Shown one piece after another: positions 20,754-42,254 of a DNA stretch of 64,000 nt. Source of the stretch: a virus; IMG/VR virus record IMGVR_UViG_3300024999_000053, positions 1 through 64,000 of that record. One strand, given 5' to 3'. The notes below the pieces were generated by a model. That model did not search any database. It was not told where the DNA came from and saw only the letters and a program-made list of their open reading frames with translations. A program made the position numbers and the translations under genes. Positions within the stretch are counted from its first letter, which is position 1, and every line of letters starts with the position of its first letter.

Positions 20754-23639
20754 ATGAATCAAATAATTACAAAAGAAGTTCAAGAGGTTATCGATTATGT
20801 ATTAAAGCATGAATCAGATTTAAATTTTAAAGTTTGTAAAACATGTGGGCGTAGCTTACCAGCACATGAATGGTTTTATACAAAACACGAAGGATGTAAA
20901 TTCGGAGTTTTGTCAAAATGTAAAGAATGTGTAAACAAGGGTTATGTATTTTATGATTTAATCCATCCTTGGTATAATACAGATGAAGAGTTTATTATTA
21001 ATTTTCGCAAAATGTCTATAGAACAATTGGTTAAATATTATAATAAATCATCCTCTACTATTACAGTTTATGCTAAAACTTTAAAGTTAAATAAACCAGA
21101 AATTAATACACAATTAACAGAAGAAGAAATAATTTTCATGTATGAATCTTTATTAAATAATGAAATTAAAGTATTTACAAATGGAATATATAACTATGAC
21201 AAATATATAGTTATTTTAATAAAATATATGATAAATAATATTTTAAAATGGGATAGGGAAGATATTTGTCAAAATTACTCTTCAAAAATATACAAGAAAA
21301 ATGGATTAAGTGGGATGCTTGGCATTGAGAAATTTAGCATATATGAATACTTAATAAAATCATTTCCTGAATATGATATTAATCCTTGGGAGTTAAGATC
21401 ATCTAGTGTCGGAAATGGATTTTGGACAGAAGAAAATGTGAATAAATCTCTTAACTGGTTAAAGATAAAACTACTAGAATATAAAAATATTGACAACATA
21501 AATTTTGCGGGAACGTTTGGATTTAATAATTTATTAGAGAAATATAATCTACTTGGTTTATGTTCTGTGAGATTTAATGCTAGTTTTGTTGCTTTGTTTG
21601 AAAAGATGTATGGTGAAAAATTTTCGAAAGAAGAGATGTTGAAGCATAATTATAAATTTGATATAAATACAGATTGCAACTCTATAAGTGCAGAAAGTAA
21701 AATATACAAATTGACTGATTCATATTACGATCTTGATGATAGAGGAAAGACTTTAATTAATGAAATAGTTAGATTTTGTAATAACGAAGGAAGATTTCCT
21801 ACTGAAAAAGATATGGCAAGGAAAAATGGATATATTGCTAGACCTCAGTATTACAAATACTTTAAAGAAAATACTTTTAAAAAGGTATATGATTATATTT
21901 TTCCATTTTATGATTTTTCACAAGAAACAGACGTAGATAAGTTTAGGAATATCTGTGATGGCAGAAACTATAATGCTATTTATATACCTCCTGTAAAAAT
22001 TAAGTGTACTAGATGTGGAGAAATTAAACAATTTAATGAAGATAATTTTTCTAAAGGGGAATTGCAAAAATTTGGTTTAAAATATATGTGCAAGCAATGT
22101 GAAACTGAAATAGCATATGAAAATAATTTGGCAAAGTTTGCTACAAGAAATAAAATAAAATCTTCTGATAAGAATAATATTATTGTATGGTATAATGCAT
22201 ATTTGAAAAACGGATTCAAGCAAATGCCTAATTTTTGCTACGAAGAAAACAATATGATTAAAATTATAAGACATATTATAATAAATAAAATAAAATTAGA
22301 TACAAAAGATAAAATATGTAATGTTAGTTTTTTAGGACGTAAACAATTTGATGAATATAGAATTGATATGTCTATACAAAGACTTGGAGGTAAATTAAAA
22401 GCACTTCAAACATGCTTTCCAGAACTTAATATTACTGAGGATGATGTATTTCCAGAAACATACACAGAAGAAGATATGAATAATATTATTCATGAATGGA
22501 TAGATAACAACACATTTACAGTATTTGATTTATTAAAAAAAGGTATATCATATACATATAGCAAAAAAATGAATGCTATGCTTTCTGTAAAATTTCATAG
22601 AATGGGTTTATCAAAATCAGATATGATTATGTGGTATTGTAAGAGAAATAATATATTTCATCCTTTATATAATCGAGAAATTATTAAATGGGATTTTGAA
22701 GAAGTGACAAAGGGGTTTTGGGAAAGTAAGGAAAACATGATTGAAAGAGTACAATATTATTGTGAACATGAGTGTGAAGCAACCATTTTAGATTCCATAA
22801 GCGACAATAATTTGTTAAAATTGTGGATATATAAATACTTTAGACAAGAAGATATAGGTAAAATGATTCCATATACTAAAAAGGGATATTCTTTATATAC
22901 TATTCTAATAGAATCGTATCCTGAAATTAACGAAAATAATTTATTATTTGATTGGGAATGGCATCAATTTGAGAAATCAGATAAACCAACCCTTTTAAGG
23001 ATATTAAGAGAGTTAGTAGAATTTAGATTGGACAAATATATAATTAATCCAATAATAGATATTCCAGTTTATATTAACAGAGCTTTTATTGCCGTTGTTT
23101 ATCCAAAATTTCAACATCAGATAGCTAAAAAACGTTTTGATACCTACTATCAATGGTGCTGTGAAGCATTTCCAGAATACGCTAGTAATTGGAAACCAGA
23201 AGATTTTGGTTTATGTGTTGCATTTGATGGAACTAGATGTGGTAGCATTGAGGAAAAAATGGTATATGAATTTTTTAAAGTAGAAACATGCTTAGATATA
23301 GAAGCTATTGGATTTAAACATAGTGGCGAACATGTTTTTATTTTACCTGACGACCATGAGGATAATAAATATTGCCCAGATTTTGTCGCTCAATATGTCA
23401 ATAAGAATGGAAGATTGTTAGAAATTGAAAAACCACTTTACATTGAATATTATGGGTGGTATGTAGAAGATAATAATTCCAAAATGTTCGTAGATTATGT
23501 AAGTAAAACAAACAGGAAAAATGATTATTATAGAAATAATGGAAATATATTATTTTTAGACATTTATCCATGTGATTTGAAAAATAATTTTAAATTGCTC
23601 AAAGATAAGTATAATAAACTTATAAAAACATTAAATTAA
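20754..23639 (+). CDS. Very large putative endonuclease with Zn-finger and helical repeats
   Basis: Two CxxC...CxxC fingers; repeated FPE...W..GFW units; C-terminal SIEE...YCPDF...IEYYG. Confidence 0.55.
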   Translation: MNQIITKEVQEVIDYVLKHESDLNFKVCKTCGRSLPAHEWFYTKHEGCKFGVLSKCKECVNKGYVFYDLIHPWYNTDEEFIINFRKMSIEQLVKYYNKSSSTITVYAKTLKLNKPEINTQLTEEEIIFMYESLLNNEIKVFTNGIYNYDKYIVILIKYMINNILKWDREDICQNYSSKIYKKNGLSGMLGIEKFSIYEYLIKSFPEYDINPWELRSSSVGNGFWTEENVNKSLNWLKIKLLEYKNIDNINFAGTFGFNNLLEKYNLLGLCSVRFNASFVALFEKMYGEKFSKEEMLKHNYKFDINTDCNSISAESKIYKLTDSYYDLDDRGKTLINEIVRFCNNEGRFPTEKDMARKNGYIARPQYYKYFKENTFKKVYDYIFPFYDFSQETDVDKFRNICDGRNYNAIYIPPVKIKCTRCGEIKQFNEDNFSKGELQKFGLKYMCKQCETEIAYENNLAKFATRNKIKSSDKNNIIVWYNAYLKNGFKQMPNFCYEENNMIKIIRHIIINKIKLDTKDKICNVSFLGRKQFDEYRIDMSIQRLGGKLKALQTCFPELNITEDDVFPETYTEEDMNNIIHEWIDNNTFTVFDLLKKGISYTYSKKMNAMLSVKFHRMGLSKSDMIMWYCKRNNIFHPLYNREIIKWDFEEVTKGFWESKENMIERVQYYCEHECEATILDSISDNNLLKLWIYKYFRQEDIGKMIPYTKKGYSLYTILIESYPEINENNLLFDWEWHQFEKSDKPTLLRILRELVEFRLDKYIINPIIDIPVYINRAFIAVVYPKFQHQIAKKRFDTYYQWCCEAFPEYASNWKPEDFGLCVAFDGTRCGSIEEKMVYEFFKVETCLDIEAIGFKHSGEHVFILPDDHEDNKYCPDFVAQYVNKNGRLLEIEKPLYIEYYGWYVEDNNSKMFVDYVSKTNRKNDYYRNNGNILFLDIYPCDLKNNFKLLKDKYNKLIKTLN

Positions 23640-25096: not shown

Positions 25097-25579
25097 GTGC
25101 AACAAGAAATCAATGTTCAAGAAATGGCGTGTTTATTAAAGGGGTATCAAGGGAAACGTGTCTCGGTAGGTATTGATCCAATTTGGGCAGAGAATACATA
25201 TCAAAAATTTTCATTTGATATGGGTGGGCCTGATGACAATATCATATTTCATGATATGCAAAAAGATGTACCGCAAGAATTGCATATCATTAAGGAAAAT
25301 ATTGAAAAGATATTATATATGGCGAGTGATTCTAGATTTGATTCTACTTTTAGTATATTTCTAAAAGATGGGCAAATTGATTTTTGTTTGGATGAAAAGA
25401 AGATTAGGTGTTGCAAATGTAGAGAATTGATTAATATTGACCCAATGGCAACTATATGGAGTATTAGTGGATGTGGAAATTATGGATCAAAATTTGAAGG
25501 AGAAAAACTCAATCTAAGCCTGTGTGATAATTGTCTTGGAAAAATCCTTGGATACGAGGATGGTGAGACAAGTGAGTGA
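25097..25579 (+). CDS. Hypothetical protein with C-terminal Zn finger
   Basis: CCKC...LCDNC. Confidence 0.6.
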   Translation: MQQEINVQEMACLLKGYQGKRVSVGIDPIWAENTYQKFSFDMGGPDDNIIFHDMQKDVPQELHIIKENIEKILYMASDSRFDSTFSIFLKDGQIDFCLDEKKIRCCKCRELINIDPMATIWSISGCGNYGSKFEGEKLNLSLCDNCLGKILGYEDGETSE

Positions 25580-26312
25580 TCTGGTGCTGTTTAAATCCGA
25601 GAATTTCCAAGGGATTGAGTGTGACTTTTGGAAGAACGAAAATGATGATGTGTTTATGACTAGCGAACAATTAGGTATGGTGCTTGGTTTTTCTGATCCA
25701 TCAAAAGGTGTAAGTAATTTAATCAATAGAAAACTTAAAAATGGAGAAAACCCCAATGAATATTTAAAAACCAAAGAATTTTCAGCTATCCTCGCCATGA
25801 GGACACCTTCTGGCATCCAAGAAACCAGAATATTTAATGAGGATGGAATTTATGAGGTAGCTTTTTTGGCAAGAACCGAAAGAGCAAAAGAGTTTCGTTC
25901 TTGGGTTAGAAAAATTCTTAAAGGACTTCGTAAAGGCGAATTAGAATTATTAAGAAAGCAAATCGAAGAAGATAAGTCAAAGGTTTTACTATATGACCAA
26001 GTGATGTCTTCTAAAACCAATAAGACTATGATGATTGTTGCTAAAGAATTGAAATTGAGTGGAAGGAATAAATTATTTAGTTTTTTAAGGTCTGAAGGAA
26101 TATTAATGTCAGGTAAAGGGAAACAAAATTTGCCTTATCAACAATTTATTGATGCAGGATATTTTGAAGTAGTAATTAAGATTAAAATTATTGAGGGAGA
26201 AGTTGTGGATATACCTGTTACATTAGTGACGAGTCGAGGAATGGACTATATATTTAAAAGGTTAGAAAAGAGCAAAGAAAAAGGCTTGCAGTTGGAACTA
26301 CAAGCTATGTAA
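25572..26312 (+). CDS. Bro-N + KilA-C antirepressor (start adjusted to GTG 25572)
   Basis: FNEDGIYEV...AKEFRSWV; RNKLFSFLR...NLPYQQFIDAGYF...TLVTSRG. Confidence 0.85.
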   Translation: MSDLVLFKSENFQGIECDFWKNENDDVFMTSEQLGMVLGFSDPSKGVSNLINRKLKNGENPNEYLKTKEFSAILAMRTPSGIQETRIFNEDGIYEVAFLARTERAKEFRSWVRKILKGLRKGELELLRKQIEEDKSKVLLYDQVMSSKTNKTMMIVAKELKLSGRNKLFSFLRSEGILMSGKGKQNLPYQQFIDAGYFEVVIKIKIIEGEVVDIPVTLVTSRGMDYIFKRLEKSKEKGLQLELQAM

Positions 26313-28060: not shown

Positions 28061-29644
28061 TTGGCTGACAATTTAGGATTAGTCATACAGGTTAACTATG
28101 CAAGTAGTCAAAACAATATTGACAAAGCTATTGAAAAATTACAAACATATGTAAATGGCAAAAATTTACATATAGCTTTTGATTCTACATCAATCAAAGG
28201 ATTAGACCAAATCAGTAAGGCAATTTCTCCTTCTATTAATCAGGTTAACAACCTTAATTCTTCTATGCAAACTTTAGGAAGAACAATGGACAATGTTAAT
28301 AAAAAATCTGTTATCGAAACAAAAAATAATGGGATATTAACAGAGATTAAAGAAATAAAAGAATTGGAAAATGCTTTTGGTCAATTAACTAAGGTAACAG
28401 AAATATTTAATGCTAAATCAGGTTCTAAACAAATTAACGAAGAGACAATTAATTTAAAAAGACAGCGAGAGGCTATTGATGCATTAAACGCATCTAAAAG
28501 TAAGATGCAACAATCGCTAGACCCATTTAAAATAAATCCTGCATTGGCAACAGAAGTTCAACAATTGTCTCAAAAAATTAAAGAATTAGATATGTCGAAT
28601 GTATCTAAAACCAATGTCCAAGAAATAAGAAATCAAATAACTACACTGACACAATTAGCTAGAGAAATAGAAAATGTTAGAAAAGAAGAAGAGCATCTTG
28701 CAAAAGAACAGTTAAAGCAACAACAACAAGCTGAACAGAATATTCAAAGACAGCAACAGTTATATGCAGGACTTTTTAATCAAACAGAAAGATCAATACA
28801 GCAACAAGCTAGATTACTTAATACAAGAATGCAGTCGGCTTTAGGTTTGGGAAACAATATCAGTAATAACCTAACTCCTGAGAGTTCAAGAGTATTAGAG
28901 CATCAATTAGAGAGATATCGAAATATTATTAGACAATTTCAAGCAAATAATGAAATTGGGATAACTATAAGACCAGAGCAATTGACACAATTGCAAAATC
29001 TTGAAAATCGTATTAGAAGATTTTATGAAACAGTTAGACAAGGACAAAATGATTCTCATGGTTTTAATTTTACTCAATATGAACAATTTACAAGATTAAA
29101 TCCTGCTATTACAAATGCTACTCATGCACAACAATATTATAATACTTCTCTATTGGAAGGGCATAGATTAATTGCTTCTAATATCCAACAGACTGAACAG
29201 TATATACGTGTTACACAGCAATTAAGAAATGGCAGTCAACATTTAAACTTAGGTGTTTATATTGATAGAGCAACTGGTCAAATGTATCAGTTTAATGAAG
29301 CTTTAAGAGATGGAATGACTCGAAGTTGGGGTCTTGGAGAAGCAATGAGCACCGCAGCCACAAAGGCTATGGTTTGGTCGGTTGTAATGGGTGGAATGTA
29401 CGGGTTATTAAATGTCCTCCAACAAATTCCAAAAGCAATTATTGAAATAAATACCAGATTAGTAGAAATGTCTAAAGTAATGTCTTCTGATACTGATTAT
29501 GGTGTATTAATGGATAATCTTGCTAAATCGGCTAATGCATATGGTAGAACAATAACTGAGACACAAAATGCAGTTATTGAATTTGGGAAGCAAGGATTTG
29601 AAGCAGCCCAAGCCACTGATATGGCAAATACGGCACTTTTGGGT
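28061..29644 (+). CDS. Tape measure protein, exon 1
   Basis: Coiled-coil, ends in TP901-like core EFGKQGF...MANTALLG; frame closes 18 nt into intron 1. Confidence 0.85.
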
Positions 29645-30062
29645 AGATTATGTGCTCCCTAATGCGGTAACGTATTAGTGAAAAGTTGGCTTGTTCGGGA
29701 AAACTCCAGAGATGGACAATTCCGAGGATAATTATATTAATAATCGCGCTTAAATTGTATATGATTTGGGAATGTGATATTTACAAAGACATCGAAAATA
29801 TGATGTCTTTTTTTGTTTGTGTAAGTATGGTTATATATTTAAGGCGATTATAAATAATTATCTGTAGAGACTGAGAGGATATATGGTAACATATGTCCCA
29901 TGCCAACCACCCTTACAACCTCTAGCAAGGGTGAAGATACAGTCCGAACCACACCAATAATCTAAAAAAGAAAGTGTGGAGTTAGGTAGAAATGCCTAAC
30001 CGCTATAACATTTATGTTGTAGTCAGTAATCAAAATGATTTTTTGATGAAAGTAACAGTCTG
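29645..30062 (+). ncRNA. Group I intron 1 (418 nt, no ORF)
   Basis: Exon ends in U; IGS UGUGCUC pairs GGGU and 3' exon GCA; P TTCGGGAAA, Q AATTCCGAG, R GTAGAGACTG, S AAGATACAGTCC; terminal G; removal restores LLG|ANV. Confidence 0.88.
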
Positions 30063-30178
30063 GCAAATGTGACGGGTTTAAAAACGGCTGAAATGGCTCA
30101 ATACTTAACCGCTACTATGGCACAATTCAATGTCGTAGCAGAAGATAGTGTTTCAATAGTAAATAAAATAAATGAGGT
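30063..30178 (+). CDS. Tape measure protein, exon 2 (116 nt, absent from ORF track)
   Basis: ANVTGLKTAEMAQYLTATMAQFNVVAEDSVSIVNKINE(V), the otherwise missing piece of the conserved core. Confidence 0.88.
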
Positions 30179-30495
30179 TAGTAAATTAGCCTCCTAGTAT
30201 GGTGACATATTAGTAAAAATTCTTAAACTGCTGGAAATCCCTTAGAGACTTATAAACTACAACGTAGATGGAAACGTCAAGCGTGAATGTTTAAAAATTA
30301 TAAGTATTGGGTAATCAGCATCGAAATCCCTTAAATGGGAGACGTTCAACGACTATAATAGAAGTGGTTTATTGATTTATAAACCATAAGGTATAGTCTG
30401 AACTTTATGGAAACATAAAGAAATAGAAAGAAATTTCTATTCGCCACTACTATATAGTGGTCAATACCTTTTAATAAAGGGAAAGTAACAGAATG
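30179..30495 (+). ncRNA. Group I intron 2 (317 nt, no ORF)
   Basis: IGS AUUAGCCUC pairs GAGGU and 3' exon UGAU; P TGCTGGAAA, Q AATCAGCA, R TTCAACGACTA, S AAGGTATAGTCT; ends GAAAGTAACAGAATG; removal restores NEV|DNNFAV. Confidence 0.9.
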
Positions 30496-33400
30496 TGATA
30501 ATAACTTCGCTGTGACTTCGCAAGGTTTGGCACAAAGTTTGGCGAAAGCTGGGGAATCCGCGCAGATTTATGGTGCAACACTTGATGATGTTATTGGATA
30601 TACCACGGCAATTCAGACCGCCACAAAAGAGTCGGGAAATGTCATCGGAAATTCGCTTAAAACTACGATTTCTCGAACATTTTCGACAGATTCCGAGAAA
30701 GTATTAGCTGGAGTAGGAATTGCGATAAAAGATATATCAGGAAATGTAAGAGATGTCAATCAAATCTGGGGAGAATTAGCTGTTAAATTCAAAACGCTCT
30801 CTAGTGAGCAAAAACAGCAAATCGGACTTACAATTGGGAGTCGTTATCATTTAACACGGTTTTTAGCCCTTATGGATAATTGGCAAATAGTTACAGATGC
30901 CACCACAACATCACAACAGTCTTTATTCTCTGCTTTAGAGGAAAATAGAAAGCATTTAGGTAGTTTGGAAGCTCAGATTAATAAAGTAAAATCAGCAGGT
31001 CAAGAGCTTTCATATGTACTAGGAGAAAGCGGATTAAAATATGTAATGTATGGAGTTTTAGCAGGAACAACTTTGCTTGTTAATGGGTTAACAGAATTAT
31101 CCAATATGGGAGCAGGAGGCACAATCGCAATAACCGCTCTTGTACTAACTATGGGTGGATTATTAGCTAAAACATTAAGTCTTATTCCTGCACTTAATGC
31201 TGCAACTGTAGCTTTAAAGGCTTTTACGATAGCAACACTTACAAATCCGTGGATAATATTTGGAACTGTTGTTTTGGCTACAATAGTTAGCATTGTTTCA
31301 TATTTTGGACACGCTAAACAAGTAAGAGAAGAGCAAGAAAAATTAAACAAAACACTAGGTGACTCAACAAAAAGTTTTAATGTTCTTGCTGAATCAATAA
31401 ACAAAATAGGTGCTCCTACTCTTCAAAATATTAATGATATTGAAGCTCAAATTAAACGTTATGACGAATTAACTGAAGTAATACTTAAATCAAAAGAAGC
31501 TGAGTCTAAAAAAAGAGTTAAGACAATTGATCCTCGCACAATGCAAGTATCATTACAAAAGAAAAATATCCCAGAAGAAGTAATTGATCTTGCGGCAAAT
31601 CTTCGTATTGATGTTGGGGCATTTAAAACTTATGATGCATTGCTTTCAGAAATTACAAAAAAACAGAAAGAACTTGCTGATTCTACTGAAAAAGCCAAGA
31701 AAAATTCTACTGAGTATCAAGCACAGCAAATTAAACTATCTCAAACAAGTTTGGATGTTGCCAATAATACAAATGATTTAGTTAATGAGTATAAAGAATT
31801 GTCTATTATTACAGAAAAAAATGAGCAACAGACCAAACGTTACTCAGAAGTTAAGAATATGCTTTTAGCTATGTTTCCTGCTGAATCCAAAAATGGTCAA
31901 ATTATTATTGCTCTTTTAGAGGAAGAATCTAAGAAAAGAGTAGAACTTGCAGAAACAACAATGGCAAAATCTAGAGAACAATTGATAGCCAATGTTAAAT
32001 CTCAACAAATTACTTATGAAACTGCCGTAAAAAACATGGCTTTTTATCAGGCAGAAATAGATATGTTACAAGAACTTTGGTCTGCTCGTTCTAATAATAC
32101 TGGAAGCACAGGAAATTGGAGAATAGCTGAAGATTTAGGAATGGCTCAATCTAATTTTGTAGAAACAAAAAAAGAAGTAAATTCGCTATCAGATTCTATT
32201 AGTAAAATGAATGATGTTCTTAATTGGAAACCTGCTTCTGTTGCTGGTATTGGAGATAAAGACAAAAAAGATTCATCTTCAAAAAAAGATAAACCTGCTG
32301 ATCCATCCTATACAGACCCAATTGATGCTTTAATCAGAGAATCAAATGCTCAAGCAGAATTATCAAAAGCTAAAAGTGAAACTATTACAAAAGAACTTGA
32401 GCAAGCAAAAGCATCAAAAGACTATGGTTTAATTTTGGTTAAAAACAATGAACTTATAGAAAATCAAAAGAAAGCTATTTTGGACTTAAATGAAGCTCAT
32501 AATAAGATTAATGCTTTAAAAGATTCATCAATTTTATATTCTAAATTTGGAGATACTTCTCGTTGGTTTGACTCAAATAATGAAGCTTCAACTCAATATT
32601 ATTCGGAGTTAAATTCTGCATCTGCCGAAGTTCAAAAAACAATGGAAGCAGAATATACTCATATGGAAAAACTTCGTAAAGCTTGGGTAATAAACACAAA
32701 CGAAATAAAATTAGCAACAGAGGCTCAAAAAGAATTCGCAAAACAATCTCACGAAGATTTGTTCAAAGGAATAGAAGAACAATCCCAAGCTTTATCCTCT
32801 GCTGATGTATCCAAACTAGAATCCTCCTTTAAAAACCTAGACATCGAATCATGGATAGAATCAAACATCACAGCAACATCAGAATGGGCAGACGTAACAG
32901 CCTCTCTCCAAGAAGAACTAGCAAAATTAGGTAATCCAACAACACTAGAAGGTCAGAAAAAATATAATGAACTTTTAGAAGCTTCTGCTACTAAGGCGGC
33001 AACTGCATTAAAAGCACAGCAAGAATTAGAGAAAGCTAAAGAAAAAGCTGGTCAAGATGCACTGTTTGAACAAGCCGATGAAGATATCAAAGATATTATG
33101 TCTCAAATTGATGATGTAGACCAAATGCAAAAATTAGGAGCAGGTGGATTCTCTTCTCAAGTTCCTAAGATCAAAATTAACATTATTCCTGATATAGATT
33201 TGGATAGTGTAGATGAAGCTATACAAAAAGTTGTAGATGAAACAAAAAGTGAATTTACGTTCAAAGCACCTACTACTTTTATTAATGTTATTAATAATGA
33301 GTTTACTAATGCATTGTCTAAAGCTCAAGATAATATCATTGATCTTAAACAAAATATTAAAAATTTAGGTGAAATAAAACCTGAAAATCAAGGCCAGGTT

Positions 33401-36400
33401 GATGGGTTTTTAGAGCAATGGCAAGAAGAACTTGATAAGTTATCTAATAAGGCGAAAGACACTAGGGAAAGTCTGAAGAAGTCATTAGACGCTAAAAGTA
33501 TTACAGAGGAAGAATTTAATTCCCAAACTCAGGCAGTCAATAATGCAGAACTAACCGTATTGGCAATTCCTAGAATTGAAATGTCAGCAGAGTATCAAAC
33601 AGAATTGGAAACTCTAAAAAAGGACTATGATAATATTCCTGTAACTGTTGATACAGTTGAAGCAAATGAAATAATTTTAGCATTAATAGCAAACGCTGAA
33701 AAGTTGATTACGGCAAACATTGATTCAGCAGTTGCTAGTCAAGTCATAGCTGATTTAACAAAATCTGAAATTAAAACCATTTATATTCAAACTGTAACTT
33801 CTTCGTCAAGTGAGGATTCAGGTGATAGTGGAACTCCTGCAAGAGCAACAGGAGATAGTAATTTTGTCGGGGGAAAGGTAATTGTTGGAGAAGAGGGAAA
33901 AGAATTAATCTCTGAACCAGATGGCACAACCTATTTATCAGGCGATAAATCAGAATTAAGAGATTTACCTAAAGGTACAGTAATCCTACCTAATAGAAAA
34001 ACTGAGAATCTTCTCAAATCTTTAGGTGTTCCTGCTTATTCCAGTGGTACAGGTGATATTAAACTTGAAACTCTTATTGACTCTCAGACAGAAGATTTAG
34101 AAAAAGTCAATAAATTAATCAAGAGTACTGGGAATGCAATAGCAAAAGTAGAAAACAGTATTAAAAAATATATTAATCCTGATGGAACTGTTAATGATAA
34201 ATATGCATCTGATACTAAAATTGTGGATAAGGTTAATATTGCCAATGCAACAATTAGTAATCAAGGTGTAAATCTTAAAACTTATCAAGACCAATCAGAC
34301 AAACTAGTTAGTTCTATTGCTGAATTAAAAACAAAAGTCGATTTATCAAGTGTCGATTCATTAGTTACTAGATTAAAGTATATCAATGAAGGTATAGATG
34401 AAAATAGCAAAGTTATTAAAACATCTACAACTGATCTTGCTAAATACGTTGATAAAGACGGCAATATCAAGAAGAAGTATTTAGATACTGAAAAATCTAC
34501 TGATAAGCAAAAAGCAAGGAATGCAGAAGTTGCTCAAATAGTAGTAGATGACAGGAAAAAGATTGAGAATGCGGCAACTAGTAAAAACACGCTAACCAAT
34601 CAAAAAGAAACTACTTCTACTGTATTAGGTAATCTTAGATTTGATCAAGCTAACGATACTAAACTTGCGCTCTATAGTGAAGCATTGGAAAAAATTGATG
34701 CTGGAATCGTAAAAGTAACTGATTCAATGGAAAAGTATAAAAACGAAGATGGTAGTTACAAAGATAATGCTACTACAAGGGCTGGAAAAGCTAAACTTCA
34801 AGAGTATTATGATCAGGAAAAATCAATTCAACTTTCAATGAAGCAAATTATTACAGATAAATTCAATGCTGAATATGAAGGTTATGACAAACTTCAGAAA
34901 AAATCTGAAACACAAGTATCTGACTTGCAAAAGATTCTAGAATATCAAAAACTTATAGGTGCAAGTGTTGAAGACCAACTTGAATCAGAGCAAAGTATTT
35001 TAGAAACTAAGGAAAGCGAACAAAAATCTCTATTAGCCGAACAAGCATCCTTAGAAGCAAAGAAAACTACTATTGTTGAAAAAGCAAAAGCTGATTTATC
35101 AACAGCAAAACCTGATGGTTACACGCAAGCAGATTTAGATAGTCTGTTGGAACATAATAGTGAGTATAATTTAACTATTGATAAACTTACTACAGTCCAT
35201 TCTCAAGTATTAGATTATAAAAATTCAATAATGCAAGTTTTGCAAGAAATTGGTCAAATTAGAGCAGATGCAATAATAAAACCTTTTACTGATTCTATTG
35301 CTCAATCACAACACAGTATATCTATTCTTGGAAATCTTGATACTCTTGATGAAAAGAAAAAAGCTTATGAATATACTCAAGAAATTGGTGAAACTCTTCA
35401 AGATGAAAGTGAAAAGATTGCAAAGAGAATTTCTGAGATTCAGATTAAACTTAATAATTTAGATCCTAGCAAAGCACCTGAAGAAATTGCTAAATTAAAA
35501 GCAGAACTTGATAAATTAACATCTACTCAATATCAACTTGAGATTGAAATTATTACTAATCTTGATTCTGTAATTTCACAACTCAATAATCTCGATGTAA
35601 GTGGAATTCAAGAAGCGTTTGATGCTGGAGAAGATTGGCAAAGTATTATTCCTATAACTTTAGAAGGTCAGAAGAAATATAATGAACTGTTGATACAGCA
35701 AGCAGAAAATCAACAAGCCGCAACTAAAGCACAAGAGGAATATAATAAAACCTTAGAAAAGACAAAATTAGACCAACTTTTATCAAATGCTGACGGTCAA
35801 TTAAAGGATATTAATGATGCTATTAATTTAGTTGATCATTTTGTTTCTTTGGGAAAAGATGGTACTAGTAAAGAAGTTCCTACAATTGATTATGTTAATG
35901 ATACTCCTCATATTACTCCTAAAACTCCTGAACAAGCTGGGGCAGAAGTTGAAAATCCTGCAAATAAGACAGATTATGTCCCTCCAAAAACTTTTGTTGA
36001 TTTTATAAATAAAGAATTCTCTGATGCACTTAAAACAGGAAATGCACAAATTGCTGGATTTAATGCTGAAATTGATGCTTTAGGGCCAATTACTGAAGAG
36101 AATGTTGGAAAATTTATTGCACTAACTACAAAAATTAGTGATGTTGGAAAAGGATTAAATCAGACTTATTTGGATGCCAGAAAAGCTGTTGAAAATGATA
36201 CGAGCCTTAGTGAAGATGAGCGAAATACAAAATTACAACAAATTGATGCATCTAATATTTCAATATTGTCTAAACCTCAAATACAAATTACATCTGATGC
36301 TAAGCTTGCTCTTAAAACAGCAGGGATAAATATTGCAACGGGTATTATTGAACCATATACAGATGCAATATCTAAATTAGATCCAACTGCAGATATAGCA

Positions 36401-39400
36401 AAAATTGCAGAACAATATGCTACTGCTAGTGGAATCACTATGGCAAAAATTGATGAACTCAATAAGGAACTTAACGACCCTGCAACAACTGAAGCCAGAA
36501 AAATTGTTATCACTGCTGAAATTGGTCAATTAAAACTAGATTTGCCTAAAATGGATGCAGGAATTCAAGAAGCAGCAACTGCAATGGCAAATAGTGTTCA
36601 TGCAGAATTTGATAAAAATGCAGAAACTATTCAAGTTGATATTCTGAAGTTAGATCCAACAAGTCAAAAAGAGGAAATCACTAAATTAAACGAAAAACTT
36701 GTTGATGAAATAACCAAAGCAAAAGCCGCAGTTGTAACAAAAATGGATGAACTCAATGATGAATTGAATAATCCTAACACAACAAAAGAGCGAAAAGTTG
36801 TCATAACTGCGGAACTAAGTGCATTAAAGCTCGACTTGAAGAAACTTAATACAGAAATGGCAACTGTCCAAGCAGAAATTGATAAGACCGCAAAAGAAAC
36901 TTCTACTACGATTAAGGTTAAGAGTGATGTAACTAGTGCTAAAAAGTCTATCAAAGAAGTTGAAAATGGAAAATATAAAGCAAGTGTAAAAGTTAATGCA
37001 GAAACAACTGAAGCACAGAAAGCTATTGATGCCTTAAAGAAAGATGCAACTGCTACTATTACTGTTAATGTTGTAGAGGGAACAACTAAATCTAGTAATA
37101 AATCTTCTAATAATGCCTTTGCAAAAGGAACTCTTTTTGCTCCTGAAGGGGAAGCCATTGTTGGTGAAAAAGGCAGAGAGATAATTTCTGAACCTGATGG
37201 AAAAACATATCTTAGTGGAGATAAAGCAGAATTAAGATATTTACCAGAAGGAACATCTGTAATTCCAAATAAAGAAACTGAAGAGTTTCTTAAATCAATG
37301 GGAATTCAAGGATTTGAAGATGGAAAAGGAAAATCTCTAGCTGATTTATTTAAAATTGCTGGACTTAGTGATGTTTCTCAGTTAGGAAATCTTTCTACAT
37401 CTGCTTTACTAACATTAAAGCAAGGTCTTTATAAATATCTGATTGAAACCGCAGGTACATCAATTACAGAATTAACTACTAAATTGAATGCTCCTGAAAA
37501 TATTGATAGTGTTAACGAAGATGGAACAGTAAATTATAAAGACAATGAAGCAACTCAAGCAATTGTTTCAGAAATTAAAACAATTCAAGCAGCAGAAGAA
37601 TCTGCACAAACAGCAATAAAAGCATTAATAGTTGAGAAATATGAAGCTGAATGGGCAGGATTTGATAAGTTACAAACAAATGCAGAGTGGGAAATCAAAA
37701 GTGCAGAAAATAATTTAGAATATAGCAAATTAATTGGTAAGAACAATGAAGATATTGTTGCACAAGAAGAAGCTATATTAGCACAACAGAAAGCAAAAGA
37801 AGCGTCTTTGCTTGCACAACAAATATCTTTAAAAGCACAAAGAGATGGGTTTGCAGTTGATTCATTAGAATATAATACCTTGGATATTAAACTCAAATCT
37901 GTAACGGACGCTCTAGGCACAGTTAGAACCGATGTTTATAATACTGCATCTGAAATCGCCAATCTAAAATTTGAAGCAATAATTTTTCCGTTTAAAGAAG
38001 TTGTTTCTGATTTAGAAGTTCTCTCTAATTTTTTAGATGAAGATAATTTTGCAGGCAATTTAGATAATATACGTGGTCAAATAGTTGCTGTATCTTCTGA
38101 AATTTATGAGATTAAAAGTGAACTTTCTAAAATTAGTAATGATTCATCCTTATCTCCTGAAGAAAAAGCAAAGAAAATTGGGGAATATACAACTAAACTT
38201 GAAGAAGCAGAAATTGCTCTTAATAACTTAGCAAAGTCTGAAAAAGATTGGTTAAATAAACAATTATCAGATACTTTTGACAAGCAATTAGAAGCAGTTG
38301 AGAAAGTGCTATTTAATGGTTCAACTGAAAGTGAAGCTCAAGAGGCATTGCAAGATAAAATTGATTTACAGAATAAATTTATTTCTGGTGCTGAGAAAGA
38401 TTTAGAAATTAGTAAAATCAGAAATAGAATTGTTGCTGATGAATTAACCTTAACTGCTGAACAAACTGCTTTGTTGGATAGTCAGGGAGATATTGAAAGA
38501 ACATCATTGGAGAGACTGGGTAAACAACTTGATATTCAACAAGCATTACTTAAAGTTGAAAATCTAAAAGGTCAGAAAACTATTCAGCAAATGACTAAGA
38601 ATGCTGATGGTAATTGGAATTTTGAGTATGTTGCAGATCAGGATGCTATTTTAGAAGCAGAAAATGATTTAGCTACTAAGAGAGTTGATTTAATCACATG
38701 GGAAAGAGATCAAATAAATTCCATTGATAAAGAAAAATTAGATGAAAAAGGCAAATATCTTAGTAAATTAAAGGTAATTACAGATAAGGCCCAAAATGGA
38801 GAGTATGATTCATACGAAGATTTTGCTAATGATATGAGTGCTTTAAATCAGAAATATCTTGGTGGAATGGGAACTGTAACTGCTACTGAATGGCAAGGTA
38901 TTTTTGACTCAACTCAAACCAATATATCTAGTATGCAGACTGCTTTTACAACTTATACAACTGAAATTGAAGCATTAGCAACAAGAATGAAATTAGCATA
39001 TCAGGATATATTAGATGCTCAAGAATTAGCTAAAAAAGTTGTGGAATACGATCCTCCTGCTGATGTTAAGATTGTTGGTACTCCTAAATATAGTGAACCA
39101 GAACCAAATATTGATTTTGCCGTTGGAATAAATGACCCAAATTCTCTTCATGTTGATGATTCTACTGGTATAATTGTTAATTTCACGCCAGAAGAAGCAA
39201 CAAATATGAGTAATTGGGCTTTTAACCAAGTAAGTAAGACAGGAGAAAATCCAACAGCAGAAGATTATATGGAAGAATTTGATCTTAAGAGGTTTAAAAG
39301 TGGAGGATATACAGGAAATTCTGAAGGAATGGCATATTTAGACGAACAAGAAATTGTCTTGGATAAGTCTGATACTTTTAATCTTTTAAAATCAGTTCAA

Positions 39401-39670
39401 ATAAATAAGTCGATATTGGATTCTCTAGAAGGATTTGATTTTAAAAGTGTAATGGGCTCTATCACTAATATTAGAGGATTGTCTGATATCTTCAAAGCAC
39501 CAATAGATATGATGAAAAGTATTGGTAGTCTTGTGAAACAGACTAGTCAGACAGTAGAAAATCATTTTCATATCAACAAACTTGAATTGCCAAATGTTAA
39601 TAATCAAAACGGAGTAGACTCGTTAATTAACGGTCTCAACAGTTATGCAATTCAGTATTCAAAGAAATAA
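30496..39670 (+). CDS. Tape measure protein, exon 3
   Basis: DNNFAVTSQGLAQSLAKAG...ESGNVIGNSLKT core; hydrophobic segments; long coiled coil. Confidence 0.9.
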
Positions 39671-39760: not shown

Positions 39761-40693
39761 ATGGCAAGAGGTCAAGGAAGAATTTCAGATAATGAATTAA
39801 ATTCAGGCATAATAAATGAATTAGATGCTAAAGCATTACAAAGTGGTTTAGATAATTTGGCAGGAACTGGACGAACAACAGAAACGGTAAAAGGTGTTAA
39901 TGATGCCCTTGTGTCGCATTTGGTAGATTATGCACATCATTACGCTTCCGATGGTGGCAGTACAGATGATTACGCAATTACGCCTAACCCTCCAATAACT
40001 GCATATGTAGCAGGGCAAACGTTTAACGTCAAGGCTAACACGGATAATACAGGGGTTGCAACGTTAAACGTTAATACCTATGGCGCGAAGACTATTAAGA
40101 AAAATCACAATGAAGATTTAGTTACAGGGGATATTGTTGCAGGGCAGATTTTTACGGTGGTTTATGATGCAGGAGACGATACTTTTCAGATTACGAGTGG
40201 AATAACAAGCAAAACATGGAAAGAAATATTTAACGGCACACTCACCGATACGCCACAATTTGATATATTAATCCCTTCAAATTTTAATAGGGTAAGGATT
40301 AAGGCCCAAACTAAGGCCTCAACAACTACTAATGCTACTTTATCATTAAGGTTTAATAATGATAGCACAGCTAATCACTATCAAGCTTGTGTCGCTACTG
40401 AACAAGGATCTATGAATAAAACTGGAATTGAATTATATTCATCAGGTTTTAGTGCTTATTCTTTACCAAAATCCGACAGAGGTTATTTAGCAATGTTAGA
40501 CTTAGAAATACAAGTTGACAATAAAGCGGAACTTGTCGGTATATGTTCTTTTATAAACACAACTGGTTCCTATGTTTGCCCAGTTAGTGGGTTGTGGGTA
40601 AACCAAACAGATAGGATAGCTACTATTAATTTAGTTGCGTCTGTAAACTCTATAGGAGCAGGAAGTAAAGTTAGTGTTTGGGGGTGTGAATAG
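39761..40693 (+). CDS. Tail fibre-like protein
   Basis: DGGSTDDYAITPNPPITAYVAGQ...NTGVATLNVN...GDIVAGQIFTVVYD module; followed by a chaperone-like gene. Confidence 0.65.
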   Translation: MARGQGRISDNELNSGIINELDAKALQSGLDNLAGTGRTTETVKGVNDALVSHLVDYAHHYASDGGSTDDYAITPNPPITAYVAGQTFNVKANTDNTGVATLNVNTYGAKTIKKNHNEDLVTGDIVAGQIFTVVYDAGDDTFQITSGITSKTWKEIFNGTLTDTPQFDILIPSNFNRVRIKAQTKASTTTNATLSLRFNNDSTANHYQACVATEQGSMNKTGIELYSSGFSAYSLPKSDRGYLAMLDLEIQVDNKAELVGICSFINTTGSYVCPVSGLWVNQTDRIATINLVASVNSIGAGSKVSVWGCE

Positions 40694-41157
40694 TGCAAAT
40701 AACTGACGAAAAAGGGGTTTGGGAAGTAGGCGGTAATGTACGTTATTTAATTTCTGGAACCGAGACAGAACTGTGGAAACAGGAAAGCCAACAACTTCCT
40801 ACTCTTTCCGAAATCCAGCAACGGAAAATTCTAGAGCTAAACACAGGCTGTAATCAAGATATTTTAAATGGGTTTCCATCATCTTGCACAGGCGTAGAAC
40901 ATCAGTACAATTTTGACCTAGAATATCAAGCTAATATGAATCAAAGAGCTACGATGTTCTTACTAAAACCAACCATGACTGAAACATGGTGGCCTACTAA
41001 AGACATGGGGGTACTCACTCACACTAGAGAACAGTTTGTGCAACTGTGTGAAGACGCTGACAAAATTAAGGACGCAAAGATACTTAGGTATTTTGGCATG
41101 AAGGCACAAGTTGAAGCATGTAAAGAGATTGCTGATGTTGAAGCGATTGCGTGGTGA
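40693..41157 (+). CDS. DUF4376-like tail fibre assembly protein
   Basis: KILELNTGCNQDILNGF...HTREQFVQL...VEAIAW. Confidence 0.65.
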   Translation: MQITDEKGVWEVGGNVRYLISGTETELWKQESQQLPTLSEIQQRKILELNTGCNQDILNGFPSSCTGVEHQYNFDLEYQANMNQRATMFLLKPTMTETWWPTKDMGVLTHTREQFVQLCEDADKIKDAKILRYFGMKAQVEACKEIADVEAIAW

Positions 41158-41489: not shown

Positions 41490-42254
41490 TTGGATAATTA
41501 TGGTATAATATATTCTGCAAGAAACTTAATAAACAATAAACGATATATAGGTCAAACTACTTGTTCATTAGAGAAAAGAAGAAGAGAACACATCAATTCG
41601 ATTGGTCAACAAAAATATATTTTTCAAAGAGCAATGAAAAAATACGGTGTGGAAAATTTCATATGGGAAGAACTTGACTATGCCGATTCTCCAGAAGAAC
41701 TTGATTATAAAGAAACATATTGGATTGACCACTTTGGAACATATGGCAATAATGGGTATAATATGACTGTTGGTGGTCAAAAAATTCATAAACCATCAAA
41801 AGAAGAGCATATTAAGTATTTACGCACACAGCATGATGATAGAAGTCTCTTAGTATTTGATAAACTTGGTAACTTTATTGAAGAATCTGATAATAGGTTT
41901 TTATTTTGTATAGAGAATAATATAACTACATCGGATGCTAATCAATCATTAACAAATAGGAGACCATCAGTTGGTGATTTTATTCTTATTTATAAGGATG
42001 ATTTTACAAAAGAAAATCTAGATGATAGATTAAAAAGAGTTAGAAACACAAGAGAATTTGTAGTATTTGATGAAAATAATAAATACATAGGCACTTGGTC
42101 TAATCAGACTTATTGTAGCAGAGATACAAAAGCGCATAGGGGAAATATTAGCAGATGTTTAAGTGGAACTTTAAATAAAACTCACGGATATTATTTTTAT
42201 TATTTAGATAATTGTCCAGAAGAATTAAAGCACCTGATTCCACAATCTGACTAA
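41490..42254 (+). CDS. GIY-YIG homing endonuclease with NUMOD1-like repeats
   Basis: GIIY...YIGQT...R...E...GYNMTVGG; ISRCLSG. Confidence 0.85.
   Translation: MDNYGIIYSARNLINNKRYIGQTTCSLEKRRREHINSIGQQKYIFQRAMKKYGVENFIWEELDYADSPEELDYKETYWIDHFGTYGNNGYNMTVGGQKIHKPSKEEHIKYLRTQHDDRSLLVFDKLGNFIEESDNRFLFCIENNITTSDANQSLTNRRPSVGDFILIYKDDFTKENLDDRLKRVRNTREFVVFDENNKYIGTWSNQTYCSRDTKAHRGNISRCLSGTLNKTHGYYFYYLDNCPEELKHLIPQSD

What the first reader, a model, noticed from the sequence alone, without database searches (positions are those of the whole stretch)
29645..30495. Twin ORF-less group I introns flanking a 116-nt exon in the tape measure gene
Seen: two complete group I cores with P1/P10 guides and terminal G. 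Removing both yields an uninterrupted ~3624-aa frame reading ALLG|ANVTG...KINEV|DNNFAVTSQGLAQSL, matching the conserved tape measure core. The introns differ in core sequence but share a four-hairpin 3' domain with CG, TCA(G/A)TA and GAAAGTAACAG linkers. Established: most phage group I introns sit in DNA-metabolism genes; tape measure introns are reported but rare. Inference: tail assembly needs two splicing events; exon skipping would shift frame, so splicing could gate virion production.
Basis: partly seen in the sequence, partly recalled or inferred. Interest (0 to 1): 0.85.

Follow-up and report, generated by a model that had tools for sequence, protein, structure and literature searches.

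The report
Two self-splicing introns in tape-measure gene
The tail tape-measure gene of this uncultured phage is interrupted by two small self-splicing group I introns, mobile selfish elements of a kind already described in phage tape-measure genes, so the finding is correct but ordinary.

Summary
Intron 1 (29645-30062, 418 nt) and intron 2 (30179-30495, 317 nt) flank a 116-nt exon. Removing both gives a 10,875-nt frame of 3,624 aa with no internal stop. That frame aligns without gaps across both junctions to uninterrupted tape measure proteins, and the exons are colinear with intron-less relatives at the DNA level. Rfam RF00028 scores intron 2 at 72.8 bits (cut-off 50) and intron 1 at only 34.2 bits.

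Relatives show every state of a homing cycle:
- empty sites;
- intron 2 alone;
- a third upstream intron site;
- one relative (L009) whose intron 1 carries a 280-aa Vsr-like endonuclease gene.

The window keeps only about 20 codons of the end of that gene.

The shared four-hairpin 3' domain is real. It is a family hallmark, present in 53 distinct phage intron ends, not something special to this pair.

Multiple group I introns in tape measure genes were described in 2008 (PMC2504315). I found no RNA data, and nothing supports a regulatory gate. Verdict: a new member of a known kind, of modest interest.

The parts
28061..29644 (+). Tape measure gene, exon 1 (528 codons; the start codon is the first TTG of the ORF and was not verified). 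It ends in GGT, whose U pairs with G in P1 of intron 1.
   Evidence: ORF list and translation. The C-terminal part aligns to tape measure proteins of Bacillus and Mammaliicoccus phages.
29645..30062 (+). Group I intron 1, 418 nt, phase 0, between Gly528 and Ala529. Elements: IGS 29651-29658; P2 29659-29678 (GNRA loop); P3 29685-29690 / 29902-29907; P4 29695-29700 / 29720-29725; P5 29705-29716; long P6 29728-29755 / 29837-29861; P7 29868-29873 / 29940-29945; P7.1 29877-29898; P8 29908-29933; terminal G at 30062.
   Evidence: RF00028 at 34.2 bits, below the gathering score of 50, with E 5.3e-5 to 1.2e-6. Element coordinates. The model-free fold reproduces P2-P9.3 with z -7.45. Absent exactly at this site in L004, L005, L006 and L008. 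Differences from the L009 copy keep the pairs.
29761..29853 (+). Relic of a homing endonuclease gene in the P6 loop of intron 1. The first 13 residues are identical to the stretch beginning 20 codons before the end of the 280-aa ORF of L009; after that come one substitution and a +1 T frameshift.
   Evidence: L009 ORF 2486-3328. blastn shows the window lacks L009 2488-3252. Relic translation.
29949..30062 (+). 3' domain of intron 1: P9 29949-29979, A, P9.1 29981-30000, CG, P9.2 30003-30022, UCAGUA 30023-30028, P9.3 30029-30047, tail GAAAGUAACAG + UCUG 30048-30062.
30063..30178 (+). Exon 2, 116 nt (38 codons plus 2 nt). It encodes the middle of the PhageMin_Tail domain.
   Evidence: Pfam PF10145 profile positions 46-83, E 0.0076 for the piece alone. 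Gap-free alignment to Basilisk gp47 and the phi127 tape measure protein. Colinear with L005 3883-4000.
30179..30495 (+). Group I intron 2, 317 nt, phase 2, inside the Val567 codon. Elements: IGS 30186-30193; P2 30194-30213 (GNRA loop); P3 30219-30224 / 30360-30365; P4 30229-30234 / 30315-30320; extended P5 30235-30314; P6 30327-30340; P7 30351-30356 / 30393-30398; P8 30366-30385; terminal G at 30495.
   Evidence: RF00028 at 72.8 bits against a gathering score of 50, E 1.4e-16. Coordinates. Fold z -6.28. Homologous copies at the same site in L004 and L009. Absent in L005, L006 and L008. The core resembles introns in 217 cultured-phage records.
30403..30495 (+). 3' domain of intron 2: P9 30403-30420, A, P9.1 30422-30441, CG, P9.2 30444-30460, UCAAUA 30461-30466, P9.3 30467-30480, tail GAAAGUAACAG + AAUG 30481-30495.
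30496..39670 (+). Exon 3 of the tape measure gene (1 nt plus 3,057 codons plus the stop).
   Evidence: Open frame. PF10145 profile positions 87-198, 51.3 bits against a cut-off of 33.2. tblastn to tape measure genes of 119 phage records.

Best explanation
Two mobile, self-splicing group I introns of one widespread phage intron family have inserted 116 nt apart into the most conserved part (PhageMin_Tail domain) of a very long tape measure gene.

How it works (inferred from established group I chemistry):
- Each intron folds on the late pre-mRNA and pairs its internal guide with the end of the upstream exon (U.G pair).
- An external guanosine cuts the 5' splice site. The freed exon end then attacks after the terminal G.
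- Two independent splicing events give an mRNA for a 3,624-aa protein.
- In-frame stop codons 6 and 7 codons into the introns halt ribosomes before they reach the ribozyme cores.

Neither intron now encodes an endonuclease. Intron 1 descends from a copy that carried a zinc-finger plus Vsr-like homing endonuclease gene in P6 and lost it by a deletion of about 766 nt. The introns are therefore selfish passengers in the late, degenerating phase of the homing cycle. They are inherited vertically, or moved by recombination with co-infecting relatives, and they are not a regulatory device.

Shown: sequence, structure, exact junctions, presence/absence among relatives, and the endonuclease relic. Inferred: catalytic activity and the direction of spread.
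For: - Rfam matches: intron 2 at 72.8 bits; intron 1 at 34.2 bits over the full model.
- Model-free folds reproduce the helices, with z -6.3 and -7.5.
- The joined exons give 3,624 codons with no internal stop. The product aligns without gaps across both junctions to Basilisk gp47 (E 3e-62) and the phi127 tape measure protein (E 2e-44).
- Intron-less L005 and L008 are colinear with the window's exons to within 1 nt.
- Among the 11 related loci, site 1 is occupied in 1 (L009) and site 2 in 2 (L004, L009). A third site is occupied in 3 of the 10 loci that cover it (L006, L007, L009).
- DNA contigs of run X1 join across intron 1 (2 contigs) and DNA contigs of runs X1 and X3 join across intron 2 (one contig each); both runs also hold the window's own form at 100% identity across the exon-intron borders.
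- L009's intron 1 holds a 280-aa ORF. Its matches: phrog_559 E 7.6e-10 and phrog_1271 E 1.2e-12; zf-FCS E 1.6e-5 and DUF559 E 0.0024; best PDB hit 3r3p 'Mobile intron protein', E 0.0069. The window keeps only the end of this ORF.
- Differences between the window and L009/L004 copies keep the helices. Examples: G.U to A-U in P2, GNRA loops retained, U-A to G-C in P4 of L004.
- In-frame stops occur 6 and 7 codons into the introns.
- The same behaviour is in print for tape measure genes of B. cereus-group prophages (PMC2504315, section 8 read).
Against: - There is no RNA evidence: no RNA run holds the stretch, so splicing is inferred only.
- Intron 1 is below Rfam's gathering score (34.2 against 50).
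- Rfam found no RF00028 match at all in L004, L006 or L009, even at E up to 1. This is despite 88% mean column identity between their site-2 introns and the window's. I suspect a filter effect but could not show it.
- Subgroup assignment (IA) was not tested with subgroup models.
- The record is an uncultured, 72%-complete virus contig, so viability of this very genome is not shown.
Confidence: 0.88

Rival explanations
1. Splicing as a gate. The two ribozymes make tape-measure synthesis, and hence tail assembly, conditional on cell state (GTP, Mg2+, translation). Exon skipping would serve as an off-switch.
For: - Both splicing events are needed for an open frame, and skipping exon 2 gives a stop at codon 528.
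- The two upstream exon ends are alike (GGGU and AGGU), so cross-reaction is conceivable.
- Exon skipping in a three-intron phage gene (Twort) is cited in PMC3073962 (passage read). The original paper was not held.
Against: - Relatives with 95-97% identical protein lack one or both introns.
- Intron-less alleles occur in DNA contigs of two of the runs that hold the window's DNA.
- Intron 1 carries a decayed endonuclease gene, the mark of a selfish element.
- The same intron family sits at many other sites and in other genes.
- No data on expression were available.
Confidence: 0.05
2. Shield in competition between phages. The endonuclease-less intron 1 is kept because it destroys the target site of the endonuclease carried by co-circulating relatives (L009-like). 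This protects the tape measure gene from being cut during co-infection, while intron-less phages are cut.
For: - Endonuclease-bearing, endonuclease-less and empty forms of site 1 all appear in DNA contigs of one run, X1. The evidence is joints at 29640>30069 and 29643>30066, a loose end at 29760 identical to the start of L009's ORF region, and the window form.
- An intron endonuclease acting in competition between co-infecting phages is in print (PMC11620839; I saw only the title and the start of the abstract in a search listing).
Against: - Nothing here shows cleavage, its target or co-infection.
- Co-occurrence in a metagenome is not co-infection.
- The contigs were laid at 85% likeness or more, so they are relatives rather than the same strain.
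- This reading adds a benefit to the best explanation rather than replacing it.
Confidence: 0.15
3. Dead introns. One or both ribozymes no longer splice, the tape measure gene is a pseudogene, and the contig is a defective phage.
For: Intron 1 is below the Rfam cut-off, carries a long P6 insertion and has an A.C mismatch in P8 where L009 has A-U. There are no RNA data.
Against: - All core helices, the U.G pair and the terminal G are intact in both introns.
- The exons stay open over 3,624 codons.
- Substitutions between the copies preserve pairing.
- The window's form is held at 100% identity in contigs of three runs, at word depths of thousands in X3.
Confidence: 0.04
4. Assembly artefact: the insertions are chimeric joins in a metagenome assembly.
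For: The record is a metagenome-derived contig.
Against: - Independent contigs bridge each exon-intron border with 0 differences: X3 records 9 and 10, X1 records 4 and 5, and X4 records 17 and 19 (the last with 10 differences).
- Homologous introns sit at the same sites in other contigs, L004 and L009.
Confidence: 0.01

Closest known systems
TMP-IVS1, IVS2, IVS3a/b group I introns in tape measure genes of Bacillus cereus-group prophages (Tourasse & Kolsto 2008, PMC2504315; section 8 read)
   Same: - Group I introns lie in frame inside the conserved tape measure gene, at several sites.
- Up to two occur in one gene (E33L, KBAB4).
- Most lack an endonuclease gene.
- Presence is patchy among related phages.
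- Stop codons lie early in the intron.
- Related introns differ in P1 to fit different sites.
   Different: - The host here is an uncultured phage only 25-35% identical in the tape measure core to Bacillus phages.
- The two introns are only 116 nt apart.
- The protein has 3,624 aa, against the '>1200' of the paper.
- The endonuclease seen in the relative is Vsr-like, whereas the paper reports GIY-YIG and H-N-H.
- I could not see the paper's figures, so I do not know whether the sites or the 3' domains coincide.
Staphylococcus phage Twort orf142, three group I introns in one gene with exon skipping (Landthaler & Shub 1999; seen only as cited in PMC3073962, which prints the ORF name as orf182; original not held)
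   Same: Several similar group I introns lie close together in one phage gene, which makes exon skipping possible.
   Different: The gene is different. No splicing data exist here, and skipping exon 2 would only truncate the protein.
Group I introns of Bastillevirinae phages (Weglewska et al. 2025, PMC11878797; abstract and section 15 read)
   Same: - Genes are split by two or three IA-like introns.
- Intron loops hold homing nucleases, including PHROG 559 proteins with a Vsr signature, the family that L009's ORF matches.
- In some cases, CM hits were found on only one side of a loop.
   Different: Those introns sit in the DNA polymerase, terminase, thymidylate synthase and ribonucleotide reductase genes of myoviruses; none is reported in a tape measure gene in the section read.
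PDB 3r3p 'Mobile intron protein' (recalled to be the nuclease domain of I-Bth0305I; the name comes from memory, not from a call)
   Same: The nuclease domain of L009's intron ORF (residues 170-236) aligns to chain residues 5-67.
   Different: The match is weak (E 0.0069). L009's protein has N-terminal zinc-finger repeats (zf-FCS). The window itself holds only a relic.
Cluster J mycobacteriophage introns in capsid and tail genes (Pope et al. 2013, PMC3706429; passages read)
   Same: Group I introns lie in virion structural genes, are present in only some members of a cluster, and are spliced in late expression.
   Different: The hosts are high-GC actinobacteria. The interrupted genes are minor tail and capsid genes, not the tape measure gene.

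Membership tests
Group I catalytic intron (Rfam RF00028) | Covariance-model score at or above the curated gathering score (50 bits) | tested here: met
   Intron 2 scores 72.8 bits, E 1.4e-16. This row is for intron 2 only.
Group I catalytic intron (Rfam RF00028) | Covariance-model score at or above the gathering score (intron 1) | tested here: not met
   Intron 1 scores 34.2 bits, below 50. The whole model (positions 1-253) is matched, E 5.3e-5 for the whole window. The score is lowered by a 104-nt P6 insertion and a P7.1 insertion.
Group I catalytic intron | P1 helix between the exon end and the internal guide, with U.G at the 5' splice site | tested here: met
   U29644 and U30178 lie opposite G in the guides at 29651-29658 and 30186-30193.
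Group I catalytic intron | Terminal G at the 3' splice site, and removal that restores the host frame exactly | tested here: met
   The terminal Gs are G30062 and G30495. The joined frame has 3,624 codons with no stop. The exons are colinear with intron-less L005/L008.
Group I catalytic intron | Conserved core P3-P8 with the P3/P7 pseudoknot and J8/7 | tested here: met
   Alignment to the model, element coordinates, and model-free folds that recover P3, P4, P5, P6, P8 and P9. P7 is a pseudoknot, so I read it by eye only.
Group I catalytic intron | Self-splicing with guanosine | not testable with these tools
   No RNA run holds the stretch. A bench assay is needed.
Mobile (homing) intron | Presence/absence polymorphism at a precise site in otherwise homologous genes | tested here: met
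Mobile (homing) intron | Intron-encoded homing endonuclease | tested here: not met
   The window's introns hold no ORF above 55 aa. Intron 1 holds only a relic. The intact 280-aa ORF is in relative L009.
Subgroup IA group I introns | Extra helices P7.1/P7.2 between P7 and P3' | tested here: inconclusive
   Intron 1 has one such hairpin (29877-29898) and intron 2 has none. No subgroup models were on hand, and the definition of the subgroup is recalled.
Phage tape measure protein (Pfam PF10145 PhageMin_Tail) | Domain match above the curated cut-off (33.2 bits) | tested here: met
   Exon 3 scores 51.3 bits over profile positions 87-198. Exon 2 alone scores 16.6 bits over profile positions 46-83. 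The joined protein could not be handed to the tool.
Vsr-like intron endonucleases (PHROG 559; Pfam DUF559), for the ORF in L009 | Profile match to the nuclease domain | tested here: inconclusive
   phrog_559 E 7.6e-10 over residues 11-276. DUF559 scores 18.2 bits, below its cut-off of 20.6. PDB 3r3p E 0.0069.

The most novel reading that the evidence does not exclude
The tape-measure core of this phage group is a battlefield. At least three intron sites lie within 132 codons. An endonuclease-bearing form, an endonuclease-less form and empty alleles of the same site circulate together. The endonuclease-less introns persist because they shield an essential tail gene from the endonucleases of co-infecting relatives. 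Linked to this, the invariant single-stranded linkers of the four-hairpin 3' domain (A, CG, UCAGUA, GAAAGUAACAG) would mark a peripheral domain of a large phage intron family that has not been described structurally.
Probability: 0.15. Interest if true: 0.55.

Novelty: new member of a known kind. Interest (0 to 1): 0.3.

Why it matters
- For annotation: the gene would otherwise be called as a 533-aa and a 3,052-aa fragment. Once the introns are recognised it becomes one 3,624-aa tape measure protein, among the longest.
- For intron biology: one set of related uncultured phages displays the whole homing cycle at one gene, namely empty site, endonuclease-bearing intron and endonuclease-less intron. 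It also shows that tape-measure cores are hit repeatedly by one intron family.
- For method: Rfam's single group I model missed close homologues of an intron that it scores at 72.8 bits, and put the other intron under its cut-off. Phage introns of this family are therefore probably under-called in viral metagenomes.
- None of this changes what is known about how such introns work.

Tried and rejected
- RNA evidence: no RNA holder was listed for 29000-31500, so splicing could not be observed.
- megablast of 29000-31200 against cultured phages found no match.
- blastn of the 3' half of intron 1 against cultured phages found no match.
- Rfam on relatives: no RF00028 match in L004-L014 at gathering, nor in L004/L006/L009 or L009:1600-4100 at E up to 1. 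I do not take this as evidence that these introns differ, because they align to the window's. The cause is not known.
- RNAalifold on the MAFFT alignment of 48 3' domains recovered only 6 pairs, because MAFFT mis-registers the variable hairpins. I replaced it with a script that anchors each hairpin on the invariant linkers. In that script the CG linker is imposed by the parse. Its independent support is the invariant CGC columns.
- Regional identity between the two introns is not informative: with cheap gaps the shuffles score as high as the real pair.
- The GIY-YIG ORF at 41490-42254 was checked as a possible third intron in a tail gene. It looks free-standing, with its own upstream hairpin and no ribozyme match.
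- Earlier notes of this scan on the same genome did not bear on this finding.
- The original Twort paper (PMC22036) is not held.
- Supplementary files of the papers were not opened. Supplementary tables of PMC11878797 and the figures of PMC2504315 may show 3' domains or sites like these.
- I recalled a likeness between the 3' tail and that of known IA2 phage introns. I did not test it and give no letters.
Full report
WHAT IS THERE

The window is the first 64 kb of a 117,963-base uncultured virus record (CheckV completeness 72%). On the + strand an ORF of 533 codons (28061-29662) and one of 3,052 codons (30512-39670) lie 850 nt apart.

Rfam's group I model matches twice in the gap and nowhere else in the window:
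- 30169-30420 at 72.8 bits (gathering score 50, E 1.4e-16);
- 29635-29957 at 34.2 bits (below gathering; E 5.3e-5 for the whole window and 1.2e-6 for a 1.5-kb search).

Reading the sequence with these alignments gives:
- intron 1 = 29645-30062 (418 nt);
- exon 2 = 30063-30178 (116 nt);
- intron 2 = 30179-30495 (317 nt).

Each upstream exon ends in a U that lies opposite a G of the internal guide (29651-29658 and 30186-30193). Each intron ends in G. Three further pairs (P10) can be drawn between each guide and the first bases of the next exon.

Minimum-free-energy folds made without any model recover P2, P3, P4, P5, P6, P8 and the four 3' hairpins. Their z-scores are -7.45 and -6.28, and 0 of 100 shuffles fold as well.

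THE JUNCTIONS ARE RIGHT

Joining the three exons in a script gives 10,875 nt = 3,624 codons with no internal stop. Every other combination stops at codon 528-572.

The product aligns without a gap across both junctions to the uninterrupted tape measure proteins of Bacillus phage Basilisk (E 3e-62) and Mammaliicoccus phage phi127 (E 2e-44).

Pfam PhageMin_Tail (PF10145) is cut by the introns: exon 2 covers profile positions 46-83 and exon 3 covers positions 87-198.

At the DNA level the intron-less relatives L005 and L008 run straight from window 29643 to 30062 and from 30179 to 30496. The one-base uncertainty comes from repeated letters.

Independent contigs of three sequencing runs bridge each exon-intron border, most with zero differences. 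The insertions are therefore not an assembly artefact.

RELATIVES SHOW A HOMING CYCLE

A scan of viral contigs with exon 3 gave 11 related loci. I ran tblastn with the joined region, residues 380-760:

| Locus | Identity | State |
|---|---|---|
| L005 | 97% | no intron |
| L008 | 87% | no intron |
| L004 | 95-96% | intron 2 only, with a different P5 extension |
| L006, L007 | not stated | insertion of about 400 nt at a third site, between residues 435 and 436 |
| L009 | not stated | all three sites occupied |
| L010-L014 | 27-55% | uninterrupted where they cover the sites |

In L009 the site-1 intron matches the window's at both ends but carries about 766 extra bases in the P6 loop. These bases hold a 280-aa ORF. 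That ORF has:
- zinc-finger repeats (zf-FCS, E 1.6e-5);
- a C-terminal nuclease domain that hits DUF559 weakly (E 0.0024, below cut-off);
- matches to PHROG 559 (E 7.6e-10) and PHROG 1271 (E 1.2e-12);
- a best PDB match to 3r3p 'Mobile intron protein' (E 0.0069).

PHROG 559 proteins with a Vsr signature are reported as intron-encoded nucleases in terminase genes of Bastillevirinae (PMC11878797, section 15).

The window's intron 1 keeps only the end of this ORF. From 29761, 13 residues are identical to the stretch that begins 20 codons before the end of L009's ORF; then come a substitution and a one-T frameshift. So 'ORF-less' is true, but for intron 1 it means 'endonuclease gene deleted'.

DNA contigs laid on the window at 85% likeness or more show:
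- joints that skip intron 1 (X1, two contigs);
- joints that skip intron 2 (X1 and X3, one contig each);
- a loose end at 29760 whose letters equal the start of L009's ORF region.

Empty, endonuclease-bearing and endonuclease-less alleles therefore occur together in one run.

At site 1 both intron-bearing alleles use the glycine codon GGT, while all 4 close empty alleles use GGG or GGA.

THE SHARED 3' DOMAIN

Both introns end with P9, A, P9.1, CG, P9.2, UCA(G/A)UA, P9.3, then GAAAGUAACAG plus four bases ending in G. This is not special to the pair.

I scanned viral contigs for the two longer linkers separated by 10-30 bases. Of 125 matches (these loci plus the window, L004 and L009), 57 have a P7'-like motif within 200 nt upstream, and 53 of those are distinct.

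After anchoring on the linkers, the share of standard pairs in the first four positions of each stem compares with arms re-dealt among sequences as follows:

| Stem | Standard pairs | Re-dealt mean | Re-dealt max (500 runs) |
|---|---|---|---|
| P9 | 197 of 212 cells | 126.1 | 141 |
| P9.1 | 205 of 212 | 114.4 | 131 |
| P9.2 | 198 of 212 | 170.1 | 178 |
| P9.3 | 194 of 212 | 109.8 | 131 |

- Several pair types occur at most stem positions.
- The P9/P9.1 linker is a single A in 50 of 53 sequences.
- A G lies four bases after the tail motif in 40 of 53.
- The CG linker is imposed by my parse. Its independent support is the invariant CGC columns in the MAFFT alignment of 48 of these sequences (5 long ones were left out).
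- The two long linkers are invariant by construction of the scan.

The two introns therefore belong to one large family. What differs between them is the core: a P5 extension in intron 2; a long P6, the endonuclease relic and a P7.1 hairpin in intron 1. Their P3-P8 identity is no better than shuffles. P2 is also alike in both, with 8 bp and a GNRA loop.

Intron 2's core resembles introns in 217 cultured-phage records, 132 of them Staphylococcus; none covers 80% of the query. The 3' half of intron 1 has no such match.

TAPE MEASURE CORES ARE A RECURRENT TARGET

Of the 116 loci fetched by the 3' motif alone, 14 hold a tape-measure core. In distant phages the family sits at other places in the core:
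- one codon after site 2 (L072, L109);
- at the equivalent of residues 618/619 (L021);
- further downstream (L114).

In cultured phages all 60 listed matches (of 142 records) to the intron-less L005 region were single pieces. I therefore saw no cultured phage with introns at these sites.

WHAT IS KNOWN

Tourasse and Kolsto (2008, PMC2504315; section 8 read in full) described:
- two introns per gene in some strains;
- most of them without a complete endonuclease gene;
- related introns adapted to different sites through P1;
- a similar intron in the tape measure gene of Lactobacillus phage JCL1032 (table passage).

Several introns in one phage gene, and exon skipping, are cited for phage Twort (PMC3073962, passage; the original paper is not held). 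The finding is therefore a new member of a known kind.

MECHANISM AND RIVALS

Best reading: two selfish, self-splicing introns late in the homing cycle, with two independent splicing events needed to make the 3,624-aa protein (confidence 0.88). Chemistry and activity are inferred from the family.

A shield role against the endonuclease of co-circulating relatives is possible but untested. Dead introns and an assembly artefact are both unlikely.

OPEN POINTS
- Rfam gives no match in relatives that clearly carry homologous introns.
- The frame-restoring junction of the third-site insertion has G, not U, before the splice site.
- The partners of the invariant linkers are unknown.

Noticed in passing
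L006:3205-3604; L009:~1672-2094; L007:1-119 (equivalent to window 29366|29367, which is empty): A third insertion of about 400-423 nt lies in the tape measure gene of relatives, between residues 435 and 436. It has group-I-like P7 and J8/7 motifs, but the only frame-restoring junction puts G, not U, before the 5' splice site. Rfam gives no match.
   Followed up: partly
L009:1600-4100, L004, L006: Rfam RF00028 finds nothing at E up to 1 in relatives, although their site-2 introns align to the window's 72.8-bit intron with 88% mean column identity. Phage introns of this family may be under-called.
   Followed up: partly
window 29642-29644 and the same codon in L004, L005, L006, L008, L009: At site 1 both intron-bearing alleles use the Gly codon GGT, which supplies the U of the U.G pair. 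All four close empty alleles use GGG or GGA.
   Followed up: no
window 41490-42254: A free-standing GIY-YIG homing endonuclease ORF (phrog_314, E 3.8e-27) lies in the tail module, after a tail-fibre-like ORF (40693-41157). It has its own upstream hairpin, and no ribozyme match lies nearby.
   Followed up: partly
window 20754-23639: A 961-aa ORF has short endonuclease VII-like and HNH-like matches (phrog_1035, phrog_2340). An Ant-like ORF (25524-26312) sits in the structural block.
   Followed up: no
window 31005-31420: DNA contigs of runs X1 and X3 join 31005 to 31420 (414 nt = 138 codons, in frame) inside exon 3. This looks like a length variant of the tape measure protein in relatives, or a replaced segment.
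   Followed up: no
L006:8914-8944: A 31-nt match (90%) to the P7'-P9 region of the window's intron 2, about 5 kb downstream in L006. It suggests a further intron of the family there.
   Followed up: no
L025, L048, L114, L123: Each of these loci holds two copies of the 3' domain motif 0.8-1.8 kb apart, so closely spaced introns of this family are common in viral contigs.
   Followed up: no
window 28061-39670: At 3,624 aa the spliced tape measure protein is very long. By the usual rule of about 0.15 nm per residue (recalled) it would imply a tail of roughly half a micrometre.
   Followed up: no
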